38,825 bases of DNA, from the UHGV virus genome UHGV-0212475. One strand, written 5' to 3'. The notes under the pieces are model-generated. The model worked only from the letters and a program-made list of their open reading frames with translations, ran no database searches and had not been told where the DNA came from. A program made the translations under genes and the position numbers. This document shows positions 1-38,825 of the stretch, piece by piece (the stretch's first letter is position 1; each line of letters opens with the position of its first letter). The stretch comes from a virus.

Positions 1-430
1 ATAAAATTTGTCTGCTTCTGTTTGCGATTTAAAAGCTCTTGTTTGCTGGGTTCGCAAATCTTTTACCATGATAGGTTTTGGCGCTGGCATTCGTCAACCT
101 CCTTTGCGTTACATTTTAGTTTAAGAGAAAAAGTCCCTAACAATATTATAGCACAAAAACTGTTCTTTGAGAAACCAGCTTTTGTGCTGTTTATGAGGGA
201 AGAAATTCGTATTAGTGAGATTATGAAACAATGCGTGAAACGTTTGATATTGTTGAAAAGAAACCAGTTTTGAATCGTTTTTTACGAGGGAAAAAGCCTG
301 TTTTGAAACTTCGTTTTTAGAATTCTGTGTGGAAAGAAGGAATCTCCGATTGTAGCCACCAAAATATTGGCGGGGGGTGTTAAAATTTTCAGCTACCATC
401 CCCTCGCTTTTGGTCGTATCCCCCTTGAAA

Positions 431-1276: not shown

Positions 1277-1310
1277 ATTATAGCATACTTATTTGTACTT
1301 TAGGGAATAG
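1277..1310 (-). promoter_or_regulatory. putative promoter for the minus operon 1241 down to 431 (extended -10 TGcTATAAT on the minus strand)
   Basis: revcomp of 1277-1285 is TGCTATAAT; weak -35. Confidence 0.3.
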
Positions 1311-16508: not shown

Positions 16509-16754
16509 ATGGGTTTATTTGATTGGACGTTACATGACCTAAATGGTAAACGTGATGTAGAATTAGTAGTTAGTGTTTCACCAATATTACAAGACATTTA
16601 TATTGATGAAGTACCATATTCATTCCATGACTTCAATATGGTTTCAAATGATGATGAAACCATTATTAGAGGTAGTGTATATGAAGATGGTGGGCTGGAA
16701 CTAGTGAATGTATTTCTAAATTGTAAAAAGAAATATATTTTATTTGGAAAATAA
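16509..16754 (+). CDS. hypothetical protein (81 aa)
   Basis: TTGGAGGAAATTTAA RBS. Confidence 0.5.
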   Translation: MGLFDWTLHDLNGKRDVELVVSVSPILQDIYIDEVPYSFHDFNMVSNDDETIIRGSVYEDGGLELVNVFLNCKKKYILFGK

Positions 16755-16831
16755 GGTACACAAGTTAGGGAAAGTATGTTATACTATTTAAGTAGTAAAA
16801 AATAAAAACAAATTATTGGAGGAATTTTATT

Positions 16832-17586: not shown

Positions 17587-17608
17587 ATACATATAGGAGG
17601 GAATAACA

Positions 17609-18628: not shown

Positions 18629-18629
18629 C

Positions 18630-20936: not shown

Positions 20937-21014
20937 ATCTTATTTAAATCTAAATACAAATAAGCGCTGATAATGTATACTATTAGTATAAGATAAAGAG
21001 AGGAAGTAATAGAA

Positions 21015-21185: not shown

Positions 21186-21199
21186 TAGGAGGAATTTAA

Positions 21200-22614: not shown

Positions 22615-22616
22615 AC

Positions 22617-22850
22617 TTATTTGTCCTCCTTATTGTCTTTAATACCTTTTGTTGTTGGGTCTATAACTACCCCTAAAATACTTAATACAACGAATACCGC
22701 ATTAACAACATCAATTAGTTGTTGGCTCAAACCAGTTAGGTTTGATAAGTCTAATCCAAAAATGTTTCCCACAACTTGAATCAGAACAATTACTGCTGGA
22801 ATTAAAGCAATCCAGAACGCTTTGTTTTTGATACGTGTTTTCCAATCCAT
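22617..22850 (-). CDS. holin (phiLC3/LL-H-like, 2 TM)
   Basis: 78 aa from the internal ATG at 22850 with AAGGAGAG RBS; MDWKTRIKNKAFWIALIPAVIVL...; charged C-terminus. Confidence 0.75.
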   Translation of the reverse strand: MDWKTRIKNKAFWIALIPAVIVLIQVVGNIFGLDLSNLTGLSQQLIDVVNAVFVVLSILGVVIDPTTKGIKDNKEDK

Positions 22851-22864
22851 TTTTAACACTCTCC

Positions 22865-23110
22865 TTATAATATAGTTATAATAGCACCAATAACAGCAAC
22901 AATAATTGCCCCTGATACTGTGCGTGTTAGCCAAGTTAAACGGTCATTTATACTAGCAATGTCTTTCTCATTTTGAATTGAACGGTGATGGGTTTCACTC
23001 AATAAATTATTGTTTGCCTTTAATTCATTTTTCAAGTCTGGAATACCTTCCAAGTTTGATTCAATTCTAGCTAGTTGTACTTTTATTTCCATGAAGTCCT
23101 TATCTTCCAT
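22865..23110 (-). CDS. XhlA-like protein (coiled coil + C-terminal TM; lysis accessory)
   Basis: 81 aa; GGGAGATG RBS; amphipathic N-terminus with C-terminal TM GAIIVAVIGAIITIL. Confidence 0.55.
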   Translation of the reverse strand: MEDKDFMEIKVQLARIESNLEGIPDLKNELKANNNLLSETHHRSIQNEKDIASINDRLTWLTRTVSGAIIVAVIGAIITIL

Positions 23111-23203
23111 GCCTACATCTCCCTATCTTATTATAATCACCGCCTTTCAGCTACTATTATAGTATAGCATTTAAATAAGGGAAATAGTGTGCTTCACAGG
23201 ATG

Positions 23204-23285
23204 ATTCTAAGCGTTTTTCAGATTAAAAGTAAGGTGATTATGTATTAAAAAGCAAATAAAAAACACCCCAAAAAGAGGTGTTTTT
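23204..23285. repeat. about 65-bp direct repeat copy B plus intrinsic terminator (AAAAACACC-ccaaaaaga-GGTGTTTTT) 3' of tal; left boundary of the lysis cassette
   Basis: homologous to 21432-21494. Confidence 0.8.
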
Positions 23286-23288
23286 ACC

Positions 23289-25604: not shown

Positions 25605-25615
25605 TATGATTCCTC

Positions 25616-27700
25616 CTATAAATATCTTTCGTTTACTGAAACACTAACTTCTGGTGTTAATGCAAAGTCAGAAAACACTGGTTTTATTATTGTTTCACCT
25701 ATTGGTAATACAAATTTTTCCCAGTCATTACCTAATGTGTTTAGTACTCCGTTTGGTGTTCCATTAACGTAAAGTGTACGTGTTGCAGTATCAATCGTCA
25801 CCAAGTCACCGTTACGGAATACGTTCTTCACATCTTGTAAATATGGTGTATCACGCCACCGCATTTTAGCATCAGTGATTCCCATTGTAATTGGTTTTAT
25901 ATCTTTCCACTGCATAAACCATGTTCCAAAGCTCATAATTTGTTGTTTGTTTTCAACATTATGCACATACTTATATTCATCTTTAACACGTACATTATCA
26001 TTTTTACTATCAATTTCTAAAATAGAACATAGCCGCCAAGTGATTTTATCGTCCCAGCGCTCAAAATTTATTTCGCGCCAACCATATTGAAATTTCTTTT
26101 TGTCAATATTGTATGTTTTTAGTATCTTACCTTGATATATTAACTCCATATAGATATTATCATTGTTCTTTGCTGAATCTCTAAATACAACACCCATTAC
26201 ATACGCGCCTGTAGTATCTACTAAGTTAATTTCCATACGACCCATAGCTTCTAAAAGCTTGTCAAAATAAAAAGTAAAACGTATGTTAGCTGTGAAATTA
26301 TGTGTTCTATCGTTGTCAGATGGTGGTGTTATTGGTGCGGTCATCGCTGGACCATGCCAGTACTTGTCTGCACCATCACCAAAAGCTGGAACAACTGCGT
26401 CTGGGTCTTTTGTCATATCTAATGAACCATCAAAAGTATTAGGCGTGTCTAAGTTACCACCATAGTTTGGATAACTAGAAACAAAGTCTTGATTAAGTTT
26501 AAATTCTGGTGGTAGTGTATTACCCCAAAAAGTCCACCATTTTACAGTTTCTAAACGCGTTTTCTCAATATAATCTTGTTCTGATGGATAGCCAAACTGC
26601 AACACATTGCCTTTACCATCAACTAAACCACAGAAGCCATTGTCACTGTTCATGCTGAAATGGTATGTTGGGTATGACTTATATGTTCCATTATTTTGAA
26701 TTGTTATATTTTCGTTATATTGTGCTTCTGAAGGTACATATATACCTGTTTGCGTTGGGTTTAGGTACATGTATGGACGTGACCATGCAACACTAAATTC
26801 ACTTCCAAATGCGCAGTACTGAAAATTGATACCTTTTACATCTGGTGATTCTAATCTGACATCTAAAAAGAAATGGGTCCATTCTGTAGTACCTTTAGGT
26901 ATATCCTTAGTATATGTCTTTAGTTTTCTTAGTGGTGCATCGCCCCATTCCTGAATGACTATGCGACCCGCCAATTCTTGATTGTCATCATCAACATATG
27001 ACTTAAATGTGATTCCAGCAACAACCCTATCACCAACTTTTAAACTTGGGTTCATTCGTCTAGTGAAGTTATCTATTTGAAACCATGCTTGGTCTTTTGT
27101 ACTAAGTTTTTCGTAGTTAAAAGGTATTCCTGTTGTAAAATCAGCACCAACGACTGTACTGTTTAATCTTTTTTCTGGTAATACTTTAACCCAAGGTTTC
27201 AAATATTGGTCAATCTTTTTATACTCACTATCGTATATTAAATTAATATTACCGCTTTTAACATTTGTAAACCCTGCTGGGTATAGTGCATGTGCTAATC
27301 CGTCAGGTACATCAAATGTTAATGTTAACGGTGTATACTTAGTGTCTGTTGCGTCATACTCTTCTGTTCCTGTAAAGATAGCGCTAAAGTATCTATCTGG
27401 GAATAGGTCTAAAATTAACTCCTTTGGTTCGTCTGTGTTGATGATTTTAACTAGTTCATCTTTTGTTTCTGAAACACTCATACCACTATTGTCTGTGATA
27501 ATGAAACCATCTATACTAAGTGTATATTCACCTAATCTAGTATTTCTAAAATGTTTTCCGTCTGTATTACCAACGGTGAAAAAATCATTGTCTTTTGATA
27601 AAAACGGTATGTTCACTTTAGCAATTTGAAATAGGTGACTTGTTTCTTTACCGTCAAATGTAAAACTTCTTAAAAAATCATAATTTTCAGCCATTCTCAT
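25616..27700 (-). CDS. distal tail protein (Dit), long/evolved form
   Basis: 694 aa; N-terminal siphovirus tail-component pattern (F.FDGK.S..F.I.KVN.P...G..F..L..L.I.GFI); AAAGGAGA RBS. Confidence 0.75.
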   Translation of the reverse strand: MRMAENYDFLRSFTFDGKETSHLFQIAKVNIPFLSKDNDFFTVGNTDGKHFRNTRLGEYTLSIDGFIITDNSGMSVSETKDELVKIINTDEPKELILDLFPDRYFSAIFTGTEEYDATDTKYTPLTLTFDVPDGLAHALYPAGFTNVKSGNINLIYDSEYKKIDQYLKPWVKVLPEKRLNSTVVGADFTTGIPFNYEKLSTKDQAWFQIDNFTRRMNPSLKVGDRVVAGITFKSYVDDDNQELAGRIVIQEWGDAPLRKLKTYTKDIPKGTTEWTHFFLDVRLESPDVKGINFQYCAFGSEFSVAWSRPYMYLNPTQTGIYVPSEAQYNENITIQNNGTYKSYPTYHFSMNSDNGFCGLVDGKGNVLQFGYPSEQDYIEKTRLETVKWWTFWGNTLPPEFKLNQDFVSSYPNYGGNLDTPNTFDGSLDMTKDPDAVVPAFGDGADKYWHGPAMTAPITPPSDNDRTHNFTANIRFTFYFDKLLEAMGRMEINLVDTTGAYVMGVVFRDSAKNNDNIYMELIYQGKILKTYNIDKKKFQYGWREINFERWDDKITWRLCSILEIDSKNDNVRVKDEYKYVHNVENKQQIMSFGTWFMQWKDIKPITMGITDAKMRWRDTPYLQDVKNVFRNGDLVTIDTATRTLYVNGTPNGVLNTLGNDWEKFVLPIGETIIKPVFSDFALTPEVSVSVNERYL

Positions 27701-27736
27701 TCTCCTTTATAATTTACTATACTAGTATTATAACAC

Positions 27737-27766
27737 AAAAGGCAACCCTTGTAAAGGGGTTGCCTT
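27737..27766. terminator. hairpin AAAAGGCAACCC-ttgtaaa-GGGGTTGCCTTT between tmp and dit
   Basis: 12-bp stem; U-rich on both sides; followed on the minus strand by TGtTATAAT. Confidence 0.6.
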
Positions 27767-27773
27767 TATGTTT

Positions 27774-30700
27774 TTAAACAATACCTAAGTCACGTGAACG
27801 ATTACGTTCTGCGGTCTTATTTAGGTTGTTAAGTTCCTTGTTAAGCTTCTTACCGTCCAATAACACATCTGTATTTTTGGCTAAGATAGCTTGCAACAAT
27901 TCATTCTGTTGTTGCATTAAAGCAATGACTGTTCCTAAGTCTGTTGATGTTCCTTGCTTAGGTGTGTTGCGTTCTTCCTTCACTCCTAACGCTTGTTTAG
28001 CTTGGTTAAGCAATGCCATTGCTCTTCCTCGTTTAGCTGGTTCAGTTGGAATGATAAATTCTGGATAACCATTTTCAGCAAGTTTTGCAATTTGTGGACC
28101 TTTTGCAATACCACCATTATAATAACCTCTAATGCGTCCACCAGATGGACCCCAACCAGATTTTCCATAAGGTAAGTCTTGACGCCAGTTAGTGTTGTTA
28201 AAGAATGCTAGTAATTGGTCATAACCTGAATAAATATTGCCATGTCCTTTTACCTTGTACGCGTCAAACGTTTGTGGGATATATTGAAGCAAGCCGCGTG
28301 CTGGGTTTCCGCTTGCGGTGTTGACGTCCCATACTGCTGAACTTTGAACAATCTTTTCATTACCACCTGATTCACGTTGAATCTGTGCTAAGATACCATT
28401 GATTTCACTTTCACTAGCATTTGCACCCATTTCTTTGGAAGCTTTGATGACCAATGCGCGCCAGTTGCCATCTACAGGACCGCTAACACGTTCTTCCTCT
28501 TCTTTCTTTTTGAATAATGCTTTCACTTTTTCGGCAAATGCAGTTGTAGCTTTTGTTCCTAAACCTTTTGCCATGTCTAATGCTACGTGTGTTAGACCTC
28601 CTAAGTCCATTGCACCCATAATTGCATTTCGTGCTAAGTCTAATGGATTGCCTACCCAGTCCATAATATCGCCAATGGTTTGTTTTACCTTGTTGATACC
28701 ATTACCCACAAATGACTTGGTATTGTCCCACATGTTGCGAACTCCGTCCATGAAACCAGTTCCTTTTTTATAGAATGGAATGCGTCCTTTTTGACCTAAT
28801 ACCATTGATGTTTCTTTGGCATTTAGTACTTGTGTGCCAGCTGGTGCATTCATCATAACGTTTCTACCTTTTGGAATCATTGCTTGACCGTTTGGTGCTA
28901 TTACCATTTCAGCTCCACCACCGTCATTTACTACCATAGGTCCGCCTATGTGACCATCAGTACCGCTTGCATATTGTGGTACGTCCCATTTAGGAATTTG
29001 AGGTGCGCCAAACTTTTCTAACACCCAGTTAGCACCACCAATGATACCATTTACTGGACCACCAATTGCGCTCAATACCTTATTGAAAATACCTTTAAAT
29101 GCACCAGTAACATGCTTAGCACCACCACTAATTGCACCGCCTAAACGTTCTGGCAAACCAGTAAACCAGCGTACAATAGTGTCAATACCACCACTGAATG
29201 TGTTTTTGATTCCCTTCCAAAGGGATGATATAGTTCCTGAAACATTACTTCTAAGCTCACGTGCAATGCGTGTTACATTACTAAACCAACCAGAAACAGC
29301 ACCATTTACATTTGATATACCACCTTTAAAGAAGTTTTTGACAGCGTCCCACATGCCAGAAATTGCACCTTTAAATGTTCCGCCAAAACCTTTTACACCT
29401 TTTAGAATTTTACCAAAGAATGAAATATTAATCCAGTTCCAAATAACTTGGATAGCACCCCAAACTAATTGTTTGATACCGTCCCAAATTAATTTCCAAT
29501 CACCGTTGAAAATACCTTTAAAGATTTTTGTTGCCCCTTCAATTACATTAAAGAAACCTTCAATCAAACCAACTACTGAATCAACAAAACTCATTACAAT
29601 ATCAATTGCAATTTTAAAAATTGGTGTTAATAATTCTAACCATTTTTTAATTGCATTCATTATTGCTTGTCCGTTCTCGTTCCACCACTTAGTCACCTTA
29701 TCAAAAACAGCACCCAACCTATCCCCAAGTTCTTGAAGCTTAGGCATGATGTAAGGTATTAAGTCATCTGCAATATACTTAATCACAACACCCATAATGT
29801 CGCCCGCAACCTTGAAAGATGTACCAAGATATTGCGTTAACTTTTCAAGAATTGGCTGTGCAAACTCCCACATTTTTTCCAATGCTGGTTGGACCATTGG
29901 TAGAATTTTCTTGGTAAAGTTTGTGATACCGTCTGCCATTCCACCAAACATTGGGTTCAATGAGATACCAATTTCATTTCCTAATGCTTTTAATGCTGAT
30001 TTAAAGGCGTCCATTCCAGTTGTGTTGCTCATTGCGTTGTTCATTGCGTCTTGTGCGCCTTCTACGTTATCATATGCCATTGATGTATTGTTTAATGACT
30101 TGATAACAGCCAATGAATTATCTTCACCTAATGCGGACCAGATTGTCCCAGCTTTGTTCAGTGCGTCATATTGGTTTTCCATACCTCCAAAGTCGCTAAT
30201 CATTGAACGAATGACGTCCGCTTGTGTTGCTCCGCCTTGTTGCCATTGTCTAAACAATTCTTGTGTTTGACCGCTGAACATACCTATGTTGTCCTCGAAA
30301 CGACCATCTGTTAAAGAAATAGCCATTTCTTTAATTAAGTCATTGACTTTGTCTAAGTTGTATGCTCCATTATCTAAACCGCTTTGTAACATGTCAAATG
30401 TCTGTTCTGCTGTGAAACCAGCTTGACCAAAAATCTGTGAATACTCCGCCATGTTATCGCCTAGTTCGTCTGTTTGGTCAAGTCCTAACTGTGCGCCACG
30501 TGCCATCAAGTCCCAAGCGTGGTCTGCGTCAATACCAAAGTTAGTCATCATTTTACCAATACCACGAATAGTCTCGTTTACGTCTGCCCCTGTATTTTTA
30601 GAAAATGCAATTGCATTACGTGTCATGCGTTGTAGCATATCATCGTCCATGCCGTTGGCACCCATTACATTTTGTACACGTATCATTGCGTCTGCCACTT

Positions 30701-31661
30701 CGTTGATGTCGTCTGAATAACCTTCAGCAACTAATTGGTTAGCTAATCTTGAAACAGCTTGGGCGCTCTCTGCGTCCCAGTCAAAGGCTCCTTTGAATTT
30801 ATCAACCGCTTCAATACCAGCATTAATATTTTCAACAACTTCTGAAACAGCGTCACTAATCATATCAATTGCTTTAGTAGCTACCGCCATACCAACACCA
30901 GCAACCAAACCTTGTAGCCCTTTACTTGCTAGTCCTAAACCTTCACTAGTTTCACCGCTTGACTTACCTAATTCTTGCATTCCTTTAGATACTGAATCTA
31001 GTTCACCATCTGTATTATCAAGTGACTTTTTAAACTCTTGTAATTCTTTTTCAGCCTTGCTAACTTCTGTTGAATTTTTACCAAACTTTTGCGTTAACTG
31101 TTGGATTGCGTTTTCTTGACCAGCAATAGCTTGTTTAGTTAGGTCTGATTGACGTTTTAAACCAGCTTGTTTTGTTTCCAAAGCACCCATTTTGTCGCCT
31201 GCTTTATCCATTGCATTGGCTTGTGTTTGGAAGTCTTTTGCGTTATCTTTAATTTCTTGACCTAGCTTATCTAAACCATTCTCAAACTTGATAACGTCAG
31301 CTGTTGTTTTTTGCAAATCTTTTTGCATTCCGTTATATTTAGCACTAGCATTGTTTAATTGGGTTGTTAGTGTTTTAACTTGGTTTGATTCTTCGCCATA
31401 TTTTGCAATAGCGTCTTGACGTTTCTTACTTAGTAATTCAACTTTCTTACCTTGTAAGTCCGTAGCTGTTGCCAAGTCTTTTTCTTTTTGTTGCAATTTC
31501 TCAATACTTTGTCCTGATTTATCAAACACTGATAAATTGGCTTTCATTGCTGATTCTTGCTGTTTAATTGACTTGTTTAATTTGTCTAATGTATTAATGG
31601 TCTGGTCTACGCCATCAACACCAATACCAAACTTCATATTGCCAATAACTTTGTCTGCCAT
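27774..31661 (-). CDS. tail tape measure protein with a C-terminal lytic transglycosylase (SLT) domain
   Basis: 1295 aa; long coiled-coil N-terminus; Gly/Phe-rich K..F.G repeats; ILAQIQRESGGN...GLLQYIPQTF SLT signature; AAGGAGAG RBS. Confidence 0.9.
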   Translation of the reverse strand: MADKVIGNMKFGIGVDGVDQTINTLDKLNKSIKQQESAMKANLSVFDKSGQSIEKLQQKEKDLATATDLQGKKVELLSKKRQDAIAKYGEESNQVKTLTTQLNNASAKYNGMQKDLQKTTADVIKFENGLDKLGQEIKDNAKDFQTQANAMDKAGDKMGALETKQAGLKRQSDLTKQAIAGQENAIQQLTQKFGKNSTEVSKAEKELQEFKKSLDNTDGELDSVSKGMQELGKSSGETSEGLGLASKGLQGLVAGVGMAVATKAIDMISDAVSEVVENINAGIEAVDKFKGAFDWDAESAQAVSRLANQLVAEGYSDDINEVADAMIRVQNVMGANGMDDDMLQRMTRNAIAFSKNTGADVNETIRGIGKMMTNFGIDADHAWDLMARGAQLGLDQTDELGDNMAEYSQIFGQAGFTAEQTFDMLQSGLDNGAYNLDKVNDLIKEMAISLTDGRFEDNIGMFSGQTQELFRQWQQGGATQADVIRSMISDFGGMENQYDALNKAGTIWSALGEDNSLAVIKSLNNTSMAYDNVEGAQDAMNNAMSNTTGMDAFKSALKALGNEIGISLNPMFGGMADGITNFTKKILPMVQPALEKMWEFAQPILEKLTQYLGTSFKVAGDIMGVVIKYIADDLIPYIMPKLQELGDRLGAVFDKVTKWWNENGQAIMNAIKKWLELLTPIFKIAIDIVMSFVDSVVGLIEGFFNVIEGATKIFKGIFNGDWKLIWDGIKQLVWGAIQVIWNWINISFFGKILKGVKGFGGTFKGAISGMWDAVKNFFKGGISNVNGAVSGWFSNVTRIARELRSNVSGTISSLWKGIKNTFSGGIDTIVRWFTGLPERLGGAISGGAKHVTGAFKGIFNKVLSAIGGPVNGIIGGANWVLEKFGAPQIPKWDVPQYASGTDGHIGGPMVVNDGGGAEMVIAPNGQAMIPKGRNVMMNAPAGTQVLNAKETSMVLGQKGRIPFYKKGTGFMDGVRNMWDNTKSFVGNGINKVKQTIGDIMDWVGNPLDLARNAIMGAMDLGGLTHVALDMAKGLGTKATTAFAEKVKALFKKKEEEERVSGPVDGNWRALVIKASKEMGANASESEINGILAQIQRESGGNEKIVQSSAVWDVNTASGNPARGLLQYIPQTFDAYKVKGHGNIYSGYDQLLAFFNNTNWRQDLPYGKSGWGPSGGRIRGYYNGGIAKGPQIAKLAENGYPEFIIPTEPAKRGRAMALLNQAKQALGVKEERNTPKQGTSTDLGTVIALMQQQNELLQAILAKNTDVLLDGKKLNKELNNLNKTAERNRSRDLGIV

Positions 31662-31867
31662 TATTCAATCTCTCCTTTTGCTTTTGCTAGGTCTGTTGGT
31701 GATAGGACAGTGCCAAAAAATGCTAATGGGTCTTGTTTATCTTCTTTTTTCTCTTTAGTATTATCACTGAATAATTCCAATAAAAGAAGGTAGTCAGCTT
31801 CGCTAACATCATTAACGGTCCAACCACCTTCCATGTATGAATTATATAATTTGTTTAGTGATTCCAA
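31661..31867 (-). CDS. tail assembly chaperone T segment (in the -1 frame relative to G; probably expressed as a G-T fusion)
   Basis: in-frame TTG only, no RBS; the frame opens 4 codons before the G stop; TAATG coupling to tmp. Confidence 0.4.
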   Translation of the reverse strand: MESLNKLYNSYMEGGWTVNDVSEADYLLLLELFSDNTKEKKEDKQDPLAFFGTVLSPTDLAKAKGEIE

Positions 31868-31899
31868 AGATTCGTCCCAGTTAACTTCTACACCGTCCT

Positions 31900-32232
31900 C
31901 TAGGCTTCCTTTGAATCATCAACCCCCATGATAGTTCCTAAAATGTTTTCTAAAACGTCTACTAAGTCATCAGATTCAATTGAATTTTCAATTGCTTCAA
32001 ATGTAACTTCTGGGTGTTCAAAGATTTCAACTAATAATACAATCATTGAATCTAATAATTCTAATTGGTCAACTTCTACACCATTAGCCATGTCTTTTTG
32101 TACGTTTTCCATATCACGGTAATACTTCATAATACTACGCATTGTCTTAACTTTGACGCCTTTTTTTGTAATTTTGCGGTTTTTTCCGTCAATAATTAAG
32201 TTAATACTGAATGATTTTGTTTGTTTTGCCAT
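31900..32232 (-). CDS. tail assembly chaperone (gpG-like), acidic
   Basis: 110 aa; GGAGGAAT RBS; positioned directly upstream of tmp. Confidence 0.55.
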   Translation of the reverse strand: MAKQTKSFSINLIIDGKNRKITKKGVKVKTMRSIMKYYRDMENVQKDMANGVEVDQLELLDSMIVLLVEIFEHPEVTFEAIENSIESDDLVDVLENILGTIMGVDDSKEA

Positions 32233-32267
32233 GTTTATTCCTCCAAATAATTTTATTTACTATAGTT

Positions 32268-32302
32268 ATTATAGCATTAAAAACAGTGATTGTGGGTGTT
32301 GG
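32268..32302 (-). promoter_or_regulatory. late promoter L1: CCAACACCCACAA-N13-TGcTATAAT (minus strand)
   Basis: motif = revcomp of 32290-32302; -10 = revcomp of 32268-32276. Confidence 0.6.
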
Positions 32303-32313
32303 TGAAACCAGTT

Positions 32314-32342
32314 AAATAAAAAAGAGAGCCGTTAAGCTCTCT
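32314..32342 (-). terminator. intrinsic terminator 3' of the capsid gene (AGAGAGC-cgttaa-GCTCTCT + U-tract on the minus strand)
   Basis: stem 7 bp; A-run 32314-32322 on the plus strand = U-run on the minus transcript. Confidence 0.65.
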
Positions 32343-32405
32343 TAAGTCAATTCAATTGTTACACTTGTGTCTGCTGGCGTCACCTGTCCGACCACAGGTG
32401 GGGTG

Positions 32406-33623
32406 CTAGGGTGTAGTAATGTTGTTTATGAATTTTCCAGCCGCTGGGTCTACTACTTTAGCATCAAAACGCATGAAGATTGCTAAGTATTGACCATAAA
32501 TTTCATGGTCAATCCAACGTGCAGTAGTTTCGGCACGATTGAAGAATGTTGCAAATGCCACTGGGTCACCTAAGAATGCTACTTTAGCACCTTTTTCACC
32601 TAACATTTCATCTTTCAACACTGTTACTGGAACACCAAACAATGATTTTCCAGACTGTGCTGTAATATCAGTTTGTAATAAGTAGCGTCCTTCACCGTCT
32701 TTCATGATGTCAACTGCGTTGTAGAATGATTGAGTAACAATCAATTCCAATCCGTAAGCTGGGTCGAAACCAGTGTTAATCTGTGTTTTGATGTCATCTA
32801 ATGATGTAGCGGCTACTGCTGAAGCTGTTTTTAACAAGTTAGCTAAAACAAAGTTAGTTGTGTTTAAACCTTGGCGTTGTACTGAATCAGCAATAATTCC
32901 AGCTAAGTCGTCCGCTGAATCATCTAATGATTCTTGTGATACAACAATTTGACCACGATAAGTTGATACATTGTAAGGAACTTCTTCAAATTCAGGTTTT
33001 GCCAATGCTGGGTTTTTTGCCAACTCTTCAACTGTTACCATTTTTGCAGTAGTTGATTTCAAGATTGGGTATTTACCGCCAGATGTTTTAACTTTGATAC
33101 TGTTCACTTTATTACGTAAGTCAACAACTGTGTCTGGTAATTTACGTGCTTTAGTGATAATATCTTCTGGGATAATTGCTTCTGCGTCTGTTGATTTAAC
33201 TTGTCCGTCATCAACCGCACGTGTTTCATTAAATGATTTTACGCTAGTTGATTTTGAAGTTACGTAGTCTAAAAACGCACGTTGTTCTGTTACTGGCTCT
33301 GCTAACTCTTTACCATTGATTTTTACTTTCTCCATGTCAATATCTTCTCCTTTTGCGTTCTCAATTGAACGTTCTTCTTTTTTTGGTTCTTCCTTTGGTT
33401 CGTCTTTGACTTCGTCTTTAGGTTCGTCCTTTGGTTCTTCTTTAGGCTCTTCCTTTTTGACTTCGTCTTTAGGTGCTTCTGCTTTATCTTCTGCACGTTC
33501 TTCGTTTTCAGCTGGTGTTTCATCTTTCAAAGCTTCTAACTGTTCAATAACTTTTTTAGCTTCGTCAAGTTTACCTTCTGCCAACAAAGATTTTGCTTGC
33601 GCTTCTAACTCTGCCTTGTTCAT
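32406..33623 (-). CDS. major capsid protein, HK97 fold, with acidic Lys/Glu/Pro-rich N-terminal delta/scaffold region
   Basis: 405 aa; the central and C-terminal region (about residues 150-405) shows an HK97-family capsid pattern by eye; AAAGGAG RBS; follows the prohead protease. Confidence 0.75.
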   Translation of the reverse strand: MNKAELEAQAKSLLAEGKLDEAKKVIEQLEALKDETPAENEERAEDKAEAPKDEVKKEEPKEEPKDEPKDEVKDEPKEEPKKEERSIENAKGEDIDMEKVKINGKELAEPVTEQRAFLDYVTSKSTSVKSFNETRAVDDGQVKSTDAEAIIPEDIITKARKLPDTVVDLRNKVNSIKVKTSGGKYPILKSTTAKMVTVEELAKNPALAKPEFEEVPYNVSTYRGQIVVSQESLDDSADDLAGIIADSVQRQGLNTTNFVLANLLKTASAVAATSLDDIKTQINTGFDPAYGLELIVTQSFYNAVDIMKDGEGRYLLQTDITAQSGKSLFGVPVTVLKDEMLGEKGAKVAFLGDPVAFATFFNRAETTARWIDHEIYGQYLAIFMRFDAKVVDPAAGKFINNITTP

Positions 33624-33662
33624 GCTGTAAACTCCTTTACATATTATTTTCTTACTAAAGAT

Positions 33663-33697
33663 AGTATATCATGAACAAGGTAAGTTGTGGGTGTTAC
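33663..33697 (-). promoter_or_regulatory. late promoter L2: GTAACACCCACAA-N13-TGaTATACT
   Basis: motif = revcomp of 33685-33697; -10 = revcomp of 33663-33671. Confidence 0.6.
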
Positions 33698-33699
33698 TC

Positions 33700-34254
33700 T
33701 TACAAGGTCGCTAGTCGTAACTGTAATTCTAGTTTTCGTTTTTCCATTTCGTTAACTTCCATGTTTTCAAGTGAGCGTTTAGCCACTGCAACATCTGTGT
33801 CATCATATGCTGGAATTGAAACCAGTGAGATTTCAGCTAGTGTATTGATTTTTTTGATAGTTCTAACTGGTTGACCATCTCTCCGTTCCCATTCATCTTC
33901 TGCAACCGTAAACCCAAACGAACACTGACTAAGGTCACCACGTTTTACAAGTTCCATCACATCATTTCCAAGTGTTGTGTTTGGTAACTCACAACGGAAT
34001 TTCAACCCCACTTCATCAACTGATAATTGAAGTGTACCGCTCTTTGTTCTTCCAAGTAAGTTGCCTGAATCATGATTTAAGAATAATTTTACATCGTCCA
34101 TATTAACGCCGTCCAATGCTCTTGCGTCAATAGTTTCAATAAAACCACCTAAGTCTTTCGATGGTTTATTGAATTTTAATGCGTAACCTTCAACAACATT
34201 GTTGTCATTCACGAACTCATGTAGTTGTCTAATTTCCAGTTCCGTCTGTTTCAT
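33700..34254 (-). CDS. prohead protease (HK97/U35-S78 family)
   Basis: 184 aa from the ATG at 34254 (AGAGGAAG RBS); overlaps the portal 3' end by 26 nt. Confidence 0.8.
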   Translation of the reverse strand: MKQTELEIRQLHEFVNDNNVVEGYALKFNKPSKDLGGFIETIDARALDGVNMDDVKLFLNHDSGNLLGRTKSGTLQLSVDEVGLKFRCELPNTTLGNDVMELVKRGDLSQCSFGFTVAEDEWERRDGQPVRTIKKINTLAEISLVSIPAYDDTDVAVAKRSLENMEVNEMEKRKLELQLRLATL

Positions 34255-35407
34255 TCTTGTACACTTCCTCTTCTTTATTCTCTGTTTTAACTGTTGTTTC
34301 ACCATCTTCTAAAGGTTCATACCCATAATATGCACGAACTTCATTTTCTTTGATAGTTGATAATAACTCTTTACTTGCTTTTCCACTAAACAATTGTTTG
34401 CGTCTGTCATCTAATGTATCATTCATTAGACTTGAAAAGTCCATTTCCAAAACATTACCTGTTTTAATTGCTATTTCGTCACAGATTGCAGATTCATATT
34501 GACTAATTGTTGATGCAATATAGATGTCATTTTGTCCGCTATCAGTTGAGTTGACTAATTCCATACCAAAACGGTTTAATGGAATACCTAAAACTTTTGC
34601 AATTTGTTGCGTACTGAATTTGTTTGATTGAATCAATTTCAAAATATCAGTATTCATTTTGTACTCCGTGAAGTCTGTTGCTTCATCTAAAACGATAACA
34701 CCATTACTGTTTGTGCTTCCACCGTTAGCTCTTTCAAAATCTTCACGAATTTTCTTTTTGGTTGCGTTGTCTACATAACCTTTTTTGAGTTTTAAGATTC
34801 CGCCGCCGAAAACACCATTAGCAAAGAACTTGGATAAAATCTTATTACCGTTTGTTTGCATTCCTATTTCATCACGTAAAGATAGTAAAGGACTGCGACC
34901 AATGAAACCGTCAACTACTGAAATTCTAAAATGTAAGATGTCACGTGGTTCACATCGTAACATGTGGTTTCCATAGTCTAACGTTACATCATAGCGCCAT
35001 TCACCTGTTGTCATATCTTGAATGAGGTTCACTTGGTCTGCTGTTACAAACTCTAATGACTTAATTTGTGAGTTATAATCATTCTCTTTTTCTCTATGAA
35101 TGATTGCATATGAATTACCATAAAGAATCAGCTGTGCAACTGTTGCATACATGAATGTATAATGACTTTGTTTCTCATGTGGTCGCTTGTTAATTAGTTG
35201 TAAAAAATCTTTGTCTGCGTGTTCGTCTGGAACTTTTCTGAATAGTGATTTACCAATGTCACCACCAATGATATTAACACCTGTGAACACGTCTGAATTT
35301 TGTAATGCTCGTTCACCTGTCAAATATCCTAAGTTATCCATTCCGCTTTCAATATAATCAATAAAATTCTTCTCTGCTTTAGTCTGTGGTGCAATAAATA
35401 CGCCCAT
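34229..35407 (-). CDS. portal protein (HK97-family)
   Basis: 392 aa; position between terL and the protease; portal-like sequence. Confidence 0.85.
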   Translation of the reverse strand: MGVFIAPQTKAEKNFIDYIESGMDNLGYLTGERALQNSDVFTGVNIIGGDIGKSLFRKVPDEHADKDFLQLINKRPHEKQSHYTFMYATVAQLILYGNSYAIIHREKENDYNSQIKSLEFVTADQVNLIQDMTTGEWRYDVTLDYGNHMLRCEPRDILHFRISVVDGFIGRSPLLSLRDEIGMQTNGNKILSKFFANGVFGGGILKLKKGYVDNATKKKIREDFERANGGSTNSNGVIVLDEATDFTEYKMNTDILKLIQSNKFSTQQIAKVLGIPLNRFGMELVNSTDSGQNDIYIASTISQYESAICDEIAIKTGNVLEMDFSSLMNDTLDDRRKQLFSGKASKELLSTIKENEVRAYYGYEPLEDGETTVKTENKEEEVYKNETDGTGN

Positions 35408-35411
35408 TTAA

Positions 35412-35576
35412 CTATTCACCTTCTTTCAATTCTAGGTATAATACTACTGCTGGTACTAATAATGATAGTCCTAATGCTACTAAACCAGCTACAATACTAA
35501 CAAAAAACATGCTTGTTACAAGCGCTAATACGCCTAAAACGTAAAATAGCACTACATAAATTACTGGATTTTTCAT
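35412..35576 (-). CDS. small membrane protein (54 aa, 2 TM)
   Basis: ATG at 35576 with TAGGAGGG RBS (the longer ORF runs to 35615). Confidence 0.45.
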   Translation of the reverse strand: MKNPVIYVVLFYVLGVLALVTSMFFVSIVAGLVALGLSLLVPAVVLYLELKEGE

Positions 35577-35651
35577 ATTAAACCCTCCTATACACCTTAT
35601 TTTAACACAAAACATATAAAAAAAGAGTGGTGTTTAACCACTCTTTATAGT

Positions 35652-35906
35652 TTAGATTAGTTTCCGTAATGTTTTACCTTCATCATTTAATAAATAAGCT
35701 TGTGTGACTTTGCTTGTTTCAGTGTAAACTTGATTTGTTTGAATATAGTTTCCTACTTTTTCTAGCATAACAACACGTTCATCATGGAATTTAACTTTAT
35801 AACCGTTTGCATGTCCGAATGCTCCGTTAACTCCGTCTAAAAAGTCAACTACTACTTTGTGTTTTCCGTCCTCTAATGGTACTACTCTGTCTAATTGTAA
35901 AATCAT
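35652..35906 (-). CDS. hypothetical protein (84 aa)
   Basis: AAAGGAAG RBS; first gene after late promoter L3. Confidence 0.45.
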   Translation of the reverse strand: MILQLDRVVPLEDGKHKVVVDFLDGVNGAFGHANGYKVKFHDERVVMLEKVGNYIQTNQVYTETSKVTQAYLLNDEGKTLRKLI

Positions 35907-35967
35907 TTTAAATCTTCCTTTCTATCTGTCTATTATTTTTTTTTGTTACTATTTCTAGTACTCATAT

Positions 35968-36002
35968 AGTATAACATGTTTTCCTAAACTTGTGGGTGTT
36001 GG
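35968..36002 (-). promoter_or_regulatory. late promoter L3: CCAACACCCACAA-N13-TGtTATACT
   Basis: motif = revcomp of 35990-36002, abutting the terL stop; -10 = revcomp of 35968-35976. Confidence 0.6.
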
Positions 36003-37730
36003 TTAAACACCAAAGCCGAATGTGCCTTGCTCTAACATGTTTTCAAAACTTGAATATCCAAAGTCATAATACATTGCTTCACTCATTGCATTTATTAAAG
36101 CATCCAATGAATCAATCTTGTTGCGATTCATTTTCTTTTCAATTGCTATGTTGTCAGCAAACTCTTTCATATACGCATTATATATCGCTGTATTGAGTAG
36201 TGGGTTGTTTTGATGTATTATATCACCTTTGTATATTGCGTCCCTTAGATACTTTGTGGGGGCGTTTAAATACTGTATGCGTTGCGGTACTTCAATTAGA
36301 TACCGTTCGCCGAAAACTTCCGCTAATCGCAAGACTGATTGTGACGCTTGGTGACCATCATAGAAAATACCTTGTAGGTCCAAGTCATATGTTTCAACAA
36401 AATCAACTATCCAGTCGCACATATCCGCATGGTCAATCAATCCTGATTCTAACTTACTAATTGAAACGATTCCTTCATTTTCATATTGGCGGTATGGTAT
36501 TTTATCTTCCTGAATTTTCTTTTCAATACCTCCAATTGATGAAATGAAACCATGTGTATTTACAAGTAACTTCTCTTCTTCTGCAATTGGTATAATCCAG
36601 CTAACCGCCGTTATATCTTTTGTGCGTGATAAGTCCATTCCAATAAATACAGGACGTTTTCTAATATCATATTCTTTTGTTGCTTTGATTGCGTCCCAGC
36701 TTTCTTTATCCATGAAACTATCTTGTGAAGCTTGTACCCAGAAGTTCATTTCTTTAGTTAGCCAACCACTCATGTCACCTTTTGCTTTATACTCTGCCAA
36801 TGAATTAACCTTATGTTCGTACATGGTTTCATACAATTGTGTATTCTCAAACAGTGGGTTTGATTTTATCCAATTGGCTTGGTCGTCAACTTCGCTGATA
36901 CTATCCATTTCCCAACATAAAGCAAGGTATGCGTCTGCTTCAACCTCTTCATTTAATAGCTTAGTTATAAATGGATATTCTATGCTGTGCATTGGTCCAT
37001 TAAGATTTTTAGTTGTTGTACTAATAATCAAAATTAAACCTTGTGGTTGTTGTGATTGTGAACTTTCTAATACCTCAATTAATGCTGTGCTTTTTGCTTC
37101 TCCGTATTCATCTAATACACCACAAAGTACGTCTAGTCCGTCTAAGCTGTCTGCGTCACTTGCTAAAGGTTTAACAGTTGATTCATCTTCTAAGTGTTCA
37201 ATGTCATATTTGTTCACCTTAGTAATTTTACGCACACTATCACTTGAATTTCTCAATGCTTTCAGCTGTGATTTCAACATACGGAATACAATTCCAGCTT
37301 GTTCTTTAGTATTTGCGCCAGCTACAATCTGTCTTGAAGCTTTTGGGTATTGCCCTAAGATGAACTCATACAATGAAATACCAGCAACCAGAATTGATTT
37401 ACCGTTTTTACGTGCTAAACTTATATATACTTTTCTGAATCTACGCATTTTATTACTCTTTTTGCGCCACCCATAAATTAAAGCCACAATAAACTTCTGG
37501 AACTTAGCTAGTTTATTTGTCTTTTTACTCTTTGGGTCTGGTAACATTTCAATAAATGCCACTGGTTCATATGTTTCTTTTGGGTCGTAATAGTATGGAT
37601 AATCTGGGTCTTTTGATTTTTCTAAGTCTTTCTCATGACGTCTAATTGCTTGTTTTATTTTATTACCTATTGGTATTTGATTATCTTTTATATAATTGAT
37701 ATAATCAGCTACAAAATCTATATTATTCAT
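36003..37730 (-). CDS. terL: terminase large subunit
   Basis: 575 aa; N-terminal ATPase region ARKNGKS (Walker A-like); Terminase_1-like overall pattern; AAGGAGGT RBS. Confidence 0.9.
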   Translation of the reverse strand: MNNIDFVADYINYIKDNQIPIGNKIKQAIRRHEKDLEKSKDPDYPYYYDPKETYEPVAFIEMLPDPKSKKTNKLAKFQKFIVALIYGWRKKSNKMRRFRKVYISLARKNGKSILVAGISLYEFILGQYPKASRQIVAGANTKEQAGIVFRMLKSQLKALRNSSDSVRKITKVNKYDIEHLEDESTVKPLASDADSLDGLDVLCGVLDEYGEAKSTALIEVLESSQSQQPQGLILIISTTTKNLNGPMHSIEYPFITKLLNEEVEADAYLALCWEMDSISEVDDQANWIKSNPLFENTQLYETMYEHKVNSLAEYKAKGDMSGWLTKEMNFWVQASQDSFMDKESWDAIKATKEYDIRKRPVFIGMDLSRTKDITAVSWIIPIAEEEKLLVNTHGFISSIGGIEKKIQEDKIPYRQYENEGIVSISKLESGLIDHADMCDWIVDFVETYDLDLQGIFYDGHQASQSVLRLAEVFGERYLIEVPQRIQYLNAPTKYLRDAIYKGDIIHQNNPLLNTAIYNAYMKEFADNIAIEKKMNRNKIDSLDALINAMSEAMYYDFGYSSFENMLEQGTFGFGV

Positions 37731-37769
37731 ATGTATACCTCCTTATTTCTATTATAGCACAAATAAAAA

Positions 37770-37818
37770 GACTTAGGTCATGAGTTTATCCAAAGGGGAT
37801 AACAAACTTACCTAAGTC
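37770..37818. promoter_or_regulatory. nested palindrome in the 200-bp terS-terL spacer (outer GACTTAGGT/ACCTAAGTC, inner TTTATCC/GGATAAC)
   Basis: seen directly; second palindrome CGCAAG-N10-CTTGCG at 37827-37848. Confidence 0.5.
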
Positions 37819-37930
37819 AACATGTCCGCAAGCTCTACCAAACTTGCGCCTGAATAATACTGCCCAATATTATTCTAATCTACAAATAATCTGGAAGGCG
37901 TTTTCCGTAAATACATTATAACACAAAATG

Positions 37931-38404
37931 TTAACCTTGTGCGCGCATTTTAAGCAATTGACCTAATGGGTCTTTGCTTTCGTCCTCTACTTCTTTTGGT
38001 GCTACCAGTTTCAATCTTGAATTGATAGTTAAACCTAAGTCATTCGTTGCGCTTTTTAGTTCCTTAGAATAAGAGTTCATAGCCGTTACTTTAGGATTTA
38101 GCTTTCCATCTTCTGTCAAAGGTCCTTCATATGCAACTTGTTCAGCCATTTCTGAATATAGGTAACTATAATTGCAATACCTAACCATTGCTTGTTGGTC
38201 CAGTTCTGAAATTGGTAGGTCACCAATGAAATGCGAAATTCGTTCCCACTCGTGGTAGGCTTGTTTCAACAAACCAGCTGGATAATATGAAAAGTCTAAC
38301 TTCTCAAAGTTCATTAGCTTTTCTTCTTCCTTTTGTCGTTTGTATTGTTGCTCTTGTGTAAGGTTCCCAACTTGGGCATTTAATAATTTTCTTGGTCTAC
38401 CCAT
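37931..38404 (-). CDS. terS: terminase small subunit (P27-like)
   Basis: 157 aa; AAGGTGGTGA RBS; basic N-terminus MGRPRKLLN...; position directly before terL. Confidence 0.75.
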   Translation of the reverse strand: MGRPRKLLNAQVGNLTQEQQYKRQKEEEKLMNFEKLDFSYYPAGLLKQAYHEWERISHFIGDLPISELDQQAMVRYCNYSYLYSEMAEQVAYEGPLTEDGKLNPKVTAMNSYSKELKSATNDLGLTINSRLKLVAPKEVEDESKDPLGQLLKMRAQG

Positions 38405-38406
38405 TT

Positions 38407-38742
38407 TTATTCACCACCTTTTGCCCAACTCTTCCTATTTCTGTTTTGGTCTGATACTGATTTCCATTCTAGGTTACTTGCTTTGTTGTTGTGTCTGTTG
38501 CGGTCTTTGTGGTCTACTGTGTGTCCGTCTTGTTTACCTTTTACAAATGCTTCCGCAACTAAGATGTGAACTCGTTTACCAGTTCTTTGACCGTTCTTAT
38601 ATAGGTCTACATTCAAATATCCATTATCCTTTGCATATGGCTTTAGTGGGTTTTTAGTTGTTCCGTCATTGTATGCGACATTACCATATGATGAAATTAA
38701 GTATCCATCATATCCATTTATTTTGGACCACTGTTCACTCAT
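38407..38742 (-). CDS. NUMOD4 + HNH_3 homing-type endonuclease
   Basis: 111 aa; WSKINGYDGYLISSYGNV (NUMOD4-like) and VDHKDRNRHNNKASNLEW (HNH); GAGGTGGT RBS. Confidence 0.75.
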   Translation of the reverse strand: MSEQWSKINGYDGYLISSYGNVAYNDGTTKNPLKPYAKDNGYLNVDLYKNGQRTGKRVHILVAEAFVKGKQDGHTVDHKDRNRHNNKASNLEWKSVSDQNRNRKSWAKGGE

Positions 38743-38825
38743 TATACCACCTCAATAATTTCATAATGGCGATTCTTGCCACCTAGTTTAGTTTTAATGT
38801 CTTTGAAGTAACCTGATTTTTTACC

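What the first reader, a model, noticed from the sequence alone, without database searches (positions are those of the whole stretch)
32268..36002. Three late promoters share a conserved motif CCAACACCCACAA at fixed spacing from an extended -10, and have no sigma-A -35
On the minus strand at three intergenic sites (upstream of the chaperone G gene, of the capsid gene, and of the 84-aa ORF + portal) the same geometry occurs: (C/G)(C/T)AACACCCACAA, then 13 nt, then TGnTATA(A/C)T. The motif sits where a -35 would be but does not resemble TTGACA. All 13 early plus-strand promoters have canonical TTGACA-17-TATAnT instead. This is the signature of activator-dependent late promoters (as for Alt-, RinA-, ArpU- or LtrC-type phage systems), yet the motif itself is not one I recognise. 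The factor, phage-encoded or host, is unidentified; candidates are small early ORFs of unknown function. The exact 11-mer AACACCCACAA occurs three times and only in these late intergenic regions.
Basis: seen in the sequence. Interest (0 to 1): 0.72.

Follow-up and report, generated by a model that had tools for sequence, protein, structure and literature searches.

The report
Conserved box in enterococcal phage late promoters
Three late-gene promoters of this Enterococcus phage carry the same 11-base box where the usual -35 element should be; it is conserved across related phages, and the protein that reads it is unknown.

Summary
AACACCCACAA occurs exactly three times, all on the minus strand, each 13 nt upstream of TGnTATAnT (0.014 exact copies expected). 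The window is a circularly permuted genome of an Enterococcus faecalis siphophage of the genus Efquatrovirus. The box sits at the same gene junctions in about 30 related genomes. There it is as conserved as the extended -10, while the 13-nt spacer drifts. Relatives have a fourth copy before the major tail protein gene, which the window has lost in a 2.3-kb deletion.

The box occupies -39..-29. Its last bases (ACAA) are in register with the early promoters' TTGACAA, so 'no -35' is only partly right: TTG is replaced by CCC. All late-strand promoters lack TTGAC and mostly use TATAAT. Early-strand promoters use GTTGACA plus TGnTATA(G/C)T.

I read the sites as sigma-A extended -10 late promoters whose -35 region is a phage-specific box, resembling T4 MotA-box middle promoters in layout. 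No RinA, ArpU, Ltr, MotA/AsiA or sigma domain was found, and no Alt-like regulator family surfaced in the scans. No Enterococcus genome carries the exact composite. The only recognisable DNA-binding candidate is a 57-aa stand-alone homing-endonuclease-type HTH protein next to terS. Its link to the box is inference. Activator dependence is untested.

The parts
35990..36000 (-). Late-promoter box AACACCCACAA (about -39..-29) of the promoter for the 84-aa ORF. It starts 2 nt after the TerL stop codon.
35968..35976 (-). Extended -10, TGTTATACT, of the 84-aa ORF promoter, 13 nt downstream of the box.
35622..35646 (-). Intrinsic-terminator-like hairpin with a T run that closes the 84-aa ORF cassette (promoter, ORF, terminator).
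33685..33695 (-). Late-promoter box AACACCCACAA of the major capsid gene promoter.
33663..33671 (-). Extended -10, TGATATACT, of the capsid promoter. It is followed by the conserved leader ATCTTTAGTAAGAAAA.
32290..32300 (-). Late-promoter box AACACCCACAA of the tail-assembly-chaperone / tape-measure promoter.
   Evidence: (Phage_TAC_19)
32268..32276 (-). Extended -10, TGCTATAAT, of the chaperone promoter. It is followed by the leader AACTATAGTAAATAAAA.
32322..32343 (-). Intrinsic-terminator-like hairpin immediately upstream of the chaperone promoter. In relatives it follows the major tail protein gene.
23183..23193 (-). Weak box variant AGCACACTATT, 13 nt upstream of TGCTATACT (23161-23169), before the holin genes. 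It matches 9/11 to the AACACCCTATT box of a relative's tail promoter.
1299..1309 (-). Weak box variant TATTCCCTAAA, 13 nt upstream of TGCTATAAT (1277-1285). This is the first promoter of the late strand, and it shares CCCTAAA with the relatives' major-tail box GACRCCCTAAA.
16753..16785 (+). Late-like promoter on the early strand: AAGGTACACAA-N13-TGTTATACT, with no TTG, before the 235-aa ORF that ends in an SSB-like tail (DDDLPF). It is conserved in relatives.
1..90 (-). 5' part of a 57-aa ORF that runs across the window ends (90..1, then 38825..38742). It is a candidate DNA-binding factor with a stand-alone homing-endonuclease-type HTH fold. The candidacy is inference only.
38742..38825 (-). 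3' part of the same 57-aa ORF. Its stop codon overlaps the start of the HNH_3 endonuclease gene that lies upstream of terS.

Best explanation
The three boxes are the -35-region element of a phage-specific class of late promoters, read by host sigma-A RNA polymerase through a near-perfect extended -10 (TGnTATAAT/TATACT). The class is found in Efquatrovirus phages and their Enterococcus faecium-phage relatives. The box (consensus RACRCCC[A/T][C/A]AA, at -39..-29) replaces the TTG of the early GTTGACAA element with CCC and adds AACA upstream. Sigma region 4 should therefore bind poorly. I infer that a factor made during infection, most likely phage-encoded and binding as a monomer to this non-palindromic site, occupies the box and stabilises or recruits polymerase. 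The layout matches T4 middle promoters, where a MotA box stands in place of the -35 element and a good -10 is required. Each box promoter sits just after a stop codon or terminator. It restarts transcription in front of heavily used structural genes: capsid, major tail protein and the chaperone/tape-measure genes, plus an inserted 84-aa cassette. What is shown: the sites, their geometry, their conservation, their restriction to this phage group, and the absence of known activator families. What is inferred: late timing, positive action, and the identity of the factor.
For: Exact geometry occurs three times against 0.014-0.14 expected. The same box lies at the same gene junctions in 32 IMG/VR loci from Efquatrovirus-like contigs. 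In an unbiased set anchored on the portal gene, box identity is 0.87-0.97, spacer 0.64-0.82 and extended -10 0.97-0.99. Relatives have a fourth site before the major tail protein gene: GACRCCCTAAA, 13 nt, TGATATAAT. The two strands carry two promoter grammars in five genomes. Early promoters read GTTGAC(A/T)n, 13 nt, TG(G/A)TATA(G/C)T, followed by the leader CATAAGnTAAGAGGAGGAA. Late promoters have no TTGAC, mostly TATAAT, and the leader TAGTAAGAAAA. The box is asymmetric, and the C positions carry the most information. The exact composite is absent from all Enterococcus representative genomes; the 28 hits in unrelated taxa look like chance. It is also absent from structural modules of phages whose portal is only 31-35% identical. 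T4 middle promoters have the same layout: the MotA box replaces the -35 element at 12+/-1 bp from the -10, the -10 requirement is stringent, and about half carry TGn (PMC2988021). A phage switch from -10/-35 promoters to extended -10 promoters is documented for Thermus phage P23-45 (PMC3950348).
Against: No transcript data exist for this phage group in the searched literature, so neither start sites nor timing are known. Extended -10 promoters can work without any -35 contact, so an activator is not logically required. Early promoters also carry TGn, so a simple block of sigma region 4 would not switch them off. No protein with a known activator, sigma or MotA/AsiA domain was found. Other late-strand promoters (terL, Dit, the 57-aa ORF) lack the box yet look equally good. 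In one relative the chaperone promoter box is AAGGCACACAA, and in a distant one the capsid box is ATCACACATAA, so the box is not indispensable at every site.
Confidence: 0.55

Rival explanations
1. The sites are factor-independent extended -10 promoters. Host sigma-A holoenzyme uses them unaided from the start of infection. The box is conserved because it tunes strength, for example through ACA contacts with sigma region 4 or through DNA shape, or because it is an operator for a repressor that delays or limits late expression.
For: The extended -10 elements are perfect or near perfect. ACA(A) is kept in register with TTGACA(A). Other late-strand promoters have no box. No activator homologue was found. 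A site overlapping the -35 region is equally typical of repressors (general knowledge).
Against: The most informative positions are the C's at -37, -35, -34 and -33, not the ACA shared with sigma-A promoters. G at -33, a key sigma-A contact, never appears in the box promoters. A non-palindromic single site is unusual for classical dimeric repressors. The box sits before the most abundant virion proteins, which fits a boost better than a brake.
Confidence: 0.25
2. A host transcription factor or minor sigma factor of Enterococcus recognises the box, and the phage has copied a host regulon signal.
For: No phage-encoded regulator is recognisable by sequence. The CACAA end resembles half-sites of some Firmicute regulators (from memory, not tested).
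Against: The exact composite box-N13-TGnTATAnT is not found in any Enterococcus representative genome among 185,579 species; the 28 hits are scattered over unrelated taxa. The -10 is a sigma-A type extended -10, not that of an alternative sigma factor. The scan required exact matches, so degenerate host sites would be missed.
Confidence: 0.08
3. The box is not a transcription signal. It would instead be a recombination, packaging or RNA-processing signal, or a remnant of a duplicated promoter cassette kept by gene conversion.
For: The similarity of paralogous promoters extends into the leader (TAGTAAGAAAA) and into an upstream T/G-rich stretch. The window itself shows that repeats in this region recombine.
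Against: The spacing to the extended -10 is fixed at all sites and in all genomes. Spacers between box and -10 differ almost completely among paralogues (2-5/13), which rules out recent duplication or conversion of a single block. Orthologues about 25-30% diverged in flanking DNA keep the box. Rfam finds no RNA family here.
Confidence: 0.05

Closest known systems
Bacteriophage T4 middle promoters (MotA box plus sigma-70 -10; MotA/AsiA sigma appropriation)
   Same: An asymmetric phage-specific box of about 10 bp stands in place of the -35 element at a fixed distance from a host-type -10. The -10 requirement is stringent and TGn is frequent. Early promoters of the same phage are strong -35/-10 promoters (PMC2988021).
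   Different: The box sequence is unrelated (RACRCCCACAA against (a/t)(a/t)(a/t)TGCTTtA). It lies about 3 bp further upstream (16 bp against 12+/-1 bp from the -10 hexamer). No MotA or AsiA homologue was detected (Pfam scans). The host is a Firmicute. The class is presumed late rather than middle.
Late-operon activators of Gram-positive phages: RinA, ArpU, LtrA (sigma-70 region 4-like), LtrB (DUF1492), LtrC, and TP901-1 Alt
   Same: These are phage-encoded proteins needed to switch on morphogenesis and lysis genes using host polymerase. The activator gene lies immediately upstream of terS, which is where the 57-aa HTH ORF of this phage lies (PMC3753634).
   Different: Those systems use one promoter upstream of terS, with two or three direct repeats distal to the activator gene as the binding site. 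Here the box is single-copy, overlaps the -35 region, is absent upstream of terS, and recurs at three or four internal junctions. No homologue of any of these families is present.
Extended -10 middle/late promoters of Thermus phage P23-45 with gp39/gp76
   Same: Early transcription uses the -10/-35 class. Later genes use TGn plus -10 promoters without a -35 consensus, which allows a switch by interfering with sigma region 4 (PMC3950348).
   Different: P23-45 late promoters have no conserved box in the -35 region. Here the early promoters also carry TGn, so blocking sigma region 4 alone would not silence them. No gp39-like protein was recognised.
Moron cassettes of lambdoid and other tailed phages (promoter, ORF, terminator inserted between late genes)
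   Same: The 84-aa ORF between terL and portal has its own promoter and terminator. It is absent from IME-EF4 and Nonaheksakonda and is only 35% identical in MSF2.
   Different: Its promoter is the phage's own late box promoter rather than an independent constitutive promoter. That would make it late-expressed, not lysogen-expressed.

Membership tests
Sigma-A/sigma-70 extended -10 promoter class | A TGn motif immediately upstream of a good -10 hexamer | tested here: met
   The three sites read TGTTATACT, TGATATACT and TGCTATAAT. The element is conserved at 0.97-0.99 in orthologues.
Sigma-A/sigma-70 extended -10 promoter class | No discernible -35 consensus at 16-18 bp | tested here: met
   The -35 slot reads CCCACA, which is 3/6, with TTG replaced by CCC. 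The promoter scan does not list these sites.
Sigma-A/sigma-70 extended -10 promoter class | Transcription starts 6-9 nt downstream of the -10 and is independent of sigma region 4 | not testable with these tools
   This needs 5'-RACE or dRNA-seq and in vitro transcription. No transcriptome of this genus was found.
T4-type middle promoter / sigma appropriation | A phage-specific box replaces the -35 element at fixed spacing from a host-type -10 | tested here: met
   The box lies at -39..-29, exactly 13 nt before TGn, at all sites and in all genomes.
T4-type middle promoter / sigma appropriation | MotA (box binder) and AsiA (sigma region 4 remodeller) homologues are encoded | tested here: not met
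   No such Pfam or PHROG hit in any ORF scanned. Fold-level relatives cannot be excluded, because only two proteins were modelled.
T4-type middle promoter / sigma appropriation | The MotA box sequence (a/t)(a/t)(a/t)TGCTTtA | tested here: not met
   The box is RACRCCCACAA, compared with PMC2988021.
Ltr-type late activation (RinA/ArpU/LtrA/LtrB/LtrC) | An activator protein of one of these families | tested here: not met
   No ArpU, RinA, Sigma70_r4 or DUF1492 match in Pfam at E<=0.1 (E<=1 for the 57-aa ORF) or in PHROGs at E<=0.001.
Ltr-type late activation (RinA/ArpU/LtrA/LtrB/LtrC) | A single inducible promoter just upstream of terS drives the whole late operon | tested here: not met
   There is no box upstream of terS (37931-38404). 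The boxes lie after terL, before the capsid gene and before the chaperone gene.
Ltr-type late activation (RinA/ArpU/LtrA/LtrB/LtrC) | The binding site consists of 2-3 direct repeats upstream of the promoter | tested here: not met
   Each promoter has one box, overlapping the -35 region. No repeated copies flank it. The defining feature is taken from PMC3753634.
Ltr-type late activation (RinA/ArpU/LtrA/LtrB/LtrC) | A small DNA-binding protein is encoded directly upstream of terS on the late strand | tested here: inconclusive
   A 57-aa HTH-fold ORF is at that position and is 72% identical in IME-EFm1. It belongs to a different fold family, and its function is untested.
Stand-alone homing-endonuclease C-terminal HTH domain (I-HmuI / I-TevI / sCTP-23166 fold), for the 57-aa ORF | A beta1-beta2-alpha1-alpha2-beta3 topology that superposes on solved members | tested here: met
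   [not shown]
Stand-alone homing-endonuclease C-terminal HTH domain (I-HmuI / I-TevI / sCTP-23166 fold), for the 57-aa ORF | Sequence-level family membership | tested here: not met
   No Pfam hit at E<=1. No PDB profile hit at E<=10.

The most novel reading that the evidence does not exclude
The box is read by the 57-aa stand-alone homing-endonuclease-type HTH protein encoded next to terS. On this reading a nuclease DNA-binding module has been domesticated as a monomeric late-promoter specificity factor that stands in for sigma-A region 4. That would be a MotA-like 'sigma appropriation' arrangement in a Gram-positive siphophage, built from an unrelated fold.
Probability: 0.12. Interest if true: 0.75.

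Novelty: new variant of a known kind. Interest (0 to 1): 0.45.

Why it matters
Efquatrovirus phages are among the most commonly isolated lytic phages of E. faecalis and are being developed for therapy and as engineered payload carriers. One searched paper drives payload genes from an unspecified 'late promoter' in enterococcal phage scaffolds (PMC10359290). Nothing on the transcription programme of this genus was found in the searched literature. This analysis gives a compact, portable late-promoter unit: box, 13 nt, extended -10 and a conserved leader. It also gives a clean early/late promoter grammar. Together these provide a testable handle on how the phages time their structural genes without any recognisable activator.

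Tried and rejected
1. I searched for a known late activator or sigma factor. PHROGs and Pfam (E<=0.1) were run on nearly all early ORFs and on the small late-strand ORFs. This gave no HTH, sigma, ArpU, RinA or DUF1492 hit. The only hit was a PHROG label 'transcriptional regulator' for the acidic 72-aa ORF 5659-5877, with no Pfam support.

3. I looked for a host regulon. The exact composite is absent from Enterococcus representative genomes.

4. I looked for wider distribution. Phages with a portal only 31-35% identical lack the architecture.

5. I looked for dyad symmetry in the extended site. TTGT-N13-ACAA and GGTGTT-N5-AACACC occur at individual promoters but not consistently, so I dropped the idea.

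6. I tried covariation between box variants and the 57-aa protein. Only two informative divergent genomes were obtained (CACCCCCACAA and ATCACACATAA), which is too few.

7. Rfam and tRNA scans of the window found nothing.

8. The literature search found no Efquatrovirus transcriptome and no mention of the box in a phage context.


Full report
**What the window is.** The late region is about 95% identical to Enterococcus phage MSF2 and its close relatives, and 70-77% identical to IME-EF4, EFAP-1, AL2/AL3, the phiSHEF phages and others, all classified in or near the genus Efquatrovirus. Replication and early genes lie on the + strand (about 1764-21427). Lysis, tail, head and packaging genes lie on the - strand (21517-38742, continuing at 1705-121). 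A 57-aa ORF identical to MSF2 gp16 is intact only when the two ends of the window are joined. The window is therefore a circularly permuted whole contig.

**Check of the observation.** AACACCCACAA occurs exactly at 32290-32300, 33685-33695 and 35990-36000, all on the - strand, and nowhere else. From base composition 0.014 copies are expected. Each copy is followed by 13 nt and then TGnTATAnT. With up to three mismatches allowed the composite still has only these three matches, against 0.14 expected. A weight matrix built from relatives gives 18.7 bits for the three sites and at most 12.9 bits elsewhere. None of the weaker sites lies next to an extended -10. Among the three paralogous promoters the box is 11/11 identical, the extended -10 is 7-8/9 and the spacer only 2-5/13. 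The box is therefore not part of a longer duplicated block.

**Three corrections to the observation.**
- With TATAAT at -12..-7, the box spans -39..-29. The hexamer at the canonical 17-bp spacing is CCCACA. Early promoters read GTTGACAA-N13-TGn, so ACAA at -32..-29 is common to both classes. The late-specific part is AACACCC in place of nnnGTTG.
- The 84-aa ORF served by the first promoter is closed by its own terminator at 35622-35646. The next genes, a 67-aa membrane protein and the portal, have a separate TGTTAAAAT element.
- The apparent order 'capsid, then chaperone' is an artefact of a deletion in this window, described under side observations.

**Conservation in relatives.** A scan of IMG/VR for the exact composite returned 34 loci. 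Thirty-two are Efquatrovirus-like contigs with the box at the same three junctions, and two look like chance.

I then built a set that does not depend on the box. It was anchored on the portal protein and contains 27 loci with at least 50% portal identity, and I extracted the promoters in front of three genes.
- Capsid: AAC[A/G]CCCACAA or GACGCCCACAA in Efquatrovirus. AAAGCCCACAA in the E. faecium phages related to IME-EFm1.
- Chaperone: AACACCCACAA in 23 loci. AAGGCACACAA in the Nonaheksakonda lineage. TAnTTnCACAA in the E. faecium phages.
- Major tail protein: GAC[A/G]CCCTAAA, AACACCCTATT or AACACACACAA. This is a fourth member that the window has lost.

Mean column identity across distinct orthologous sequences is 0.87-0.97 for the box, 0.64-0.82 for the spacer and 0.97-0.99 for the extended -10. 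Weak variants precede the holin genes (AGCACACTATT) and sit at the start of the late strand (TATTCCCTAAA). The C positions of the box carry the most information. A T/G-rich stretch at about -52..-40 (GGTTGTnnAAGT) recurs among paralogues, even where it overlaps the last codons of three different genes. A leader ending in TAGTAAGAAAA follows the -10. Phages whose portal is only 31-35% identical do not have this architecture.

**Two promoter grammars.** In five complete genomes the two strands differ consistently.
- Early-strand promoters read GTTGAC(A/T)n, 13 nt, TG(G/A)TATA(G/C)T, with the leader CATAAGnTAAGAGGAGGAA.
- Late-strand promoters never have TTGAC, mostly use TATAAT, and have a different leader.

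One promoter on the early strand is of the late type: AAGGTACACAA-N13-TGTTATACT at 16753-16785. It precedes a 235-aa protein ending in DDDLPF, which I read as an SSB-like acidic tail.

**Search for the factor.** PHROGs and Pfam (E<=0.1) on nearly all early ORFs, and on the small late-strand ORFs, gave no HTH, sigma, ArpU, RinA or DUF1492 match. The exact composite is absent from every Enterococcus representative genome. The 28 hits lie in unrelated taxa. This argues against a host regulon, although degenerate host sites would be missed.

The basic 147-aa early protein (8865-9308) folds confidently but resembles RelE/MqsR-type toxins, not DNA-binding proteins.

The one recognisable DNA-binding candidate is the 57-aa ORF that spans the window ends.
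- It is very basic.
- It is 72% identical to its IME-EFm1 homologue, compared with 54% for the portal and 64% for the DNA polymerase.
- It is confined to this phage group.
- It lies directly upstream of terS, with an inserted HNH_3 endonuclease gene between them in this window.
- Its AF2 model (pLDDT 84) has beta1-beta2-alpha1-alpha2-beta3 topology.
- PMC10319021 describes this fold as a monomeric major-groove binder and says it was not found stand-alone outside Paulinella.

A monomeric reader would suit a non-palindromic box. However, the position next to an HNH gene, terS and terL fits a role in packaging equally well. The link to the box is inference only. Two divergent genomes gave too little variation for a covariation test.

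**Mechanism.** I take it as near certain that these sites are promoters. My best estimate, at about 0.55, is the following. They are sigma-A extended -10 late promoters. Their -35 region is a phage-specific box bound by a factor made during infection, and that factor compensates for the lost TTG contact.

This is the layout of T4 middle promoters. There a MotA box replaces the -35 element at 12+/-1 bp from a stringent -10, and about half of the promoters carry TGn (PMC2988021). Here the box sequence is unrelated, it lies about 3 bp further upstream, and there is no MotA or AsiA homologue.

It is not an Ltr-type system. Those have one promoter upstream of terS, direct-repeat binding sites, and RinA, ArpU or LtrA-C proteins (PMC3753634). 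None of these three features is met here.

The main rival, at about 0.25, is that the promoters need no factor, as with the extended -10 late promoters of Thermus phage P23-45 (PMC3950348). On that reading the box tunes strength or serves as an operator. A host factor (0.08) and a non-transcriptional role (0.05) are less likely. None of these can be settled without transcript mapping and reporter assays.

**Novelty.** The searched library has no paper that mentions the box in a phage context. No study of Efquatrovirus transcription was found; one genome paper only lists software-predicted promoters. The finding is a new variant of a familiar kind of element. It would not astonish a specialist. 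It does give a precise, testable entry into late regulation in a therapeutically used phage genus that lacks all known late activators.

**Side observations.**
- The window lacks the 2.3 kb that in MSF2 encodes a 66-aa ORF, four head-tail connector proteins and the major tail protein. No homologue of these is present anywhere in the window.
- The deletion junction (32349-32428) lies in a 62-80 nt element that in MSF2 follows both the capsid and the major tail protein stop codons.
- That element begins CCC-TAG. In the +1 frame it encodes the same 21-22 aa tail (STPPVVGQVTPADTSVTIEL-) after both genes, so a programmed +1 frameshift is possible.
- The divergent early/late control region (about 1320-1660) is packed with TGTTCTC iterons in both orientations.
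- Three early promoters carry a CTACTATA-N8-TATAGTAG palindrome across the -10.

Noticed in passing
window 32349-32428 (junction); compare L001 (MSF2) 12130-12209 and 14508-14587: The window lacks about 2.3 kb that in MSF2 and all other relatives encodes a 66-aa ORF, four head-tail connector/terminator proteins and the major tail protein. tblastn finds no copy elsewhere in the window. The junction lies inside a 62-80 nt direct repeat. This is either a non-viable deletion variant or an assembly collapse.
   Followed up: yes
window 32342-32411 (-); L001 12147-12209 and 14528-14590: The same ~62-nt element follows the stop codons of both the capsid and the major tail protein genes. It starts CCC-TAG. 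In the +1 frame it encodes an identical 21-22 aa tail (STPPVVGQVTPADTSVTIEL[T/S]) that ends at the terminator. It also contains a CACCTG...CAGGTG hairpin. A programmed +1 frameshift may add a shared C-terminal extension to both proteins.
   Followed up: partly
window 1320-1660: The ~520-bp divergent region between the first late-strand promoter (1277-1309) and the first early promoter (1687-1715) holds a dozen or more copies of TGTTCTC(G/T) in both orientations, forming long inverted arrays. It is a likely replication origin or operator array. The 86-aa ORF 1445-1705 called there is probably not a gene.
   Followed up: partly
[not shown]
   Followed up: yes
[not shown]
   Followed up: partly
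window 3629-3657, 5289-5317, 12113-12141 (+): Three early promoters share the spacer/-10 sequence CTACTATA-N8-TATAGTAG, a perfect 8-bp inverted repeat across the -10. It also scores as a promoter on the opposite strand. It could be an operator for shutting off a subset of early promoters.
   Followed up: no
window 35622-36000 (-): The 84-aa ORF between terL and portal is a self-contained cassette of box promoter, ORF and terminator. It is absent from IME-EF4 and Nonaheksakonda and only 35% identical in MSF2, where it is annotated 'serine recombinase' with no support. It has moron-like architecture and unknown function (phrog_9473).
   Followed up: partly
window 16753-17539 (+): The 235-aa protein ends in DDDLPF, like bacterial SSB tails, but has no Pfam hit. 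Its promoter is of the late type (AAGGTACACAA-N13-TGTTATACT, no TTG) although it lies on the early strand. The arrangement is conserved in MSF2, IME-EF4, Nonaheksakonda and IME-EFm1.
   Followed up: partly
window 37730-37931 (-); L001 6339-6825; L037 913-1514: The terS-terL intergenic region is 200 bp here but about 490-600 bp in relatives. It carries two or three extended -10 elements. The content of the longer versions was not examined.
   Followed up: no
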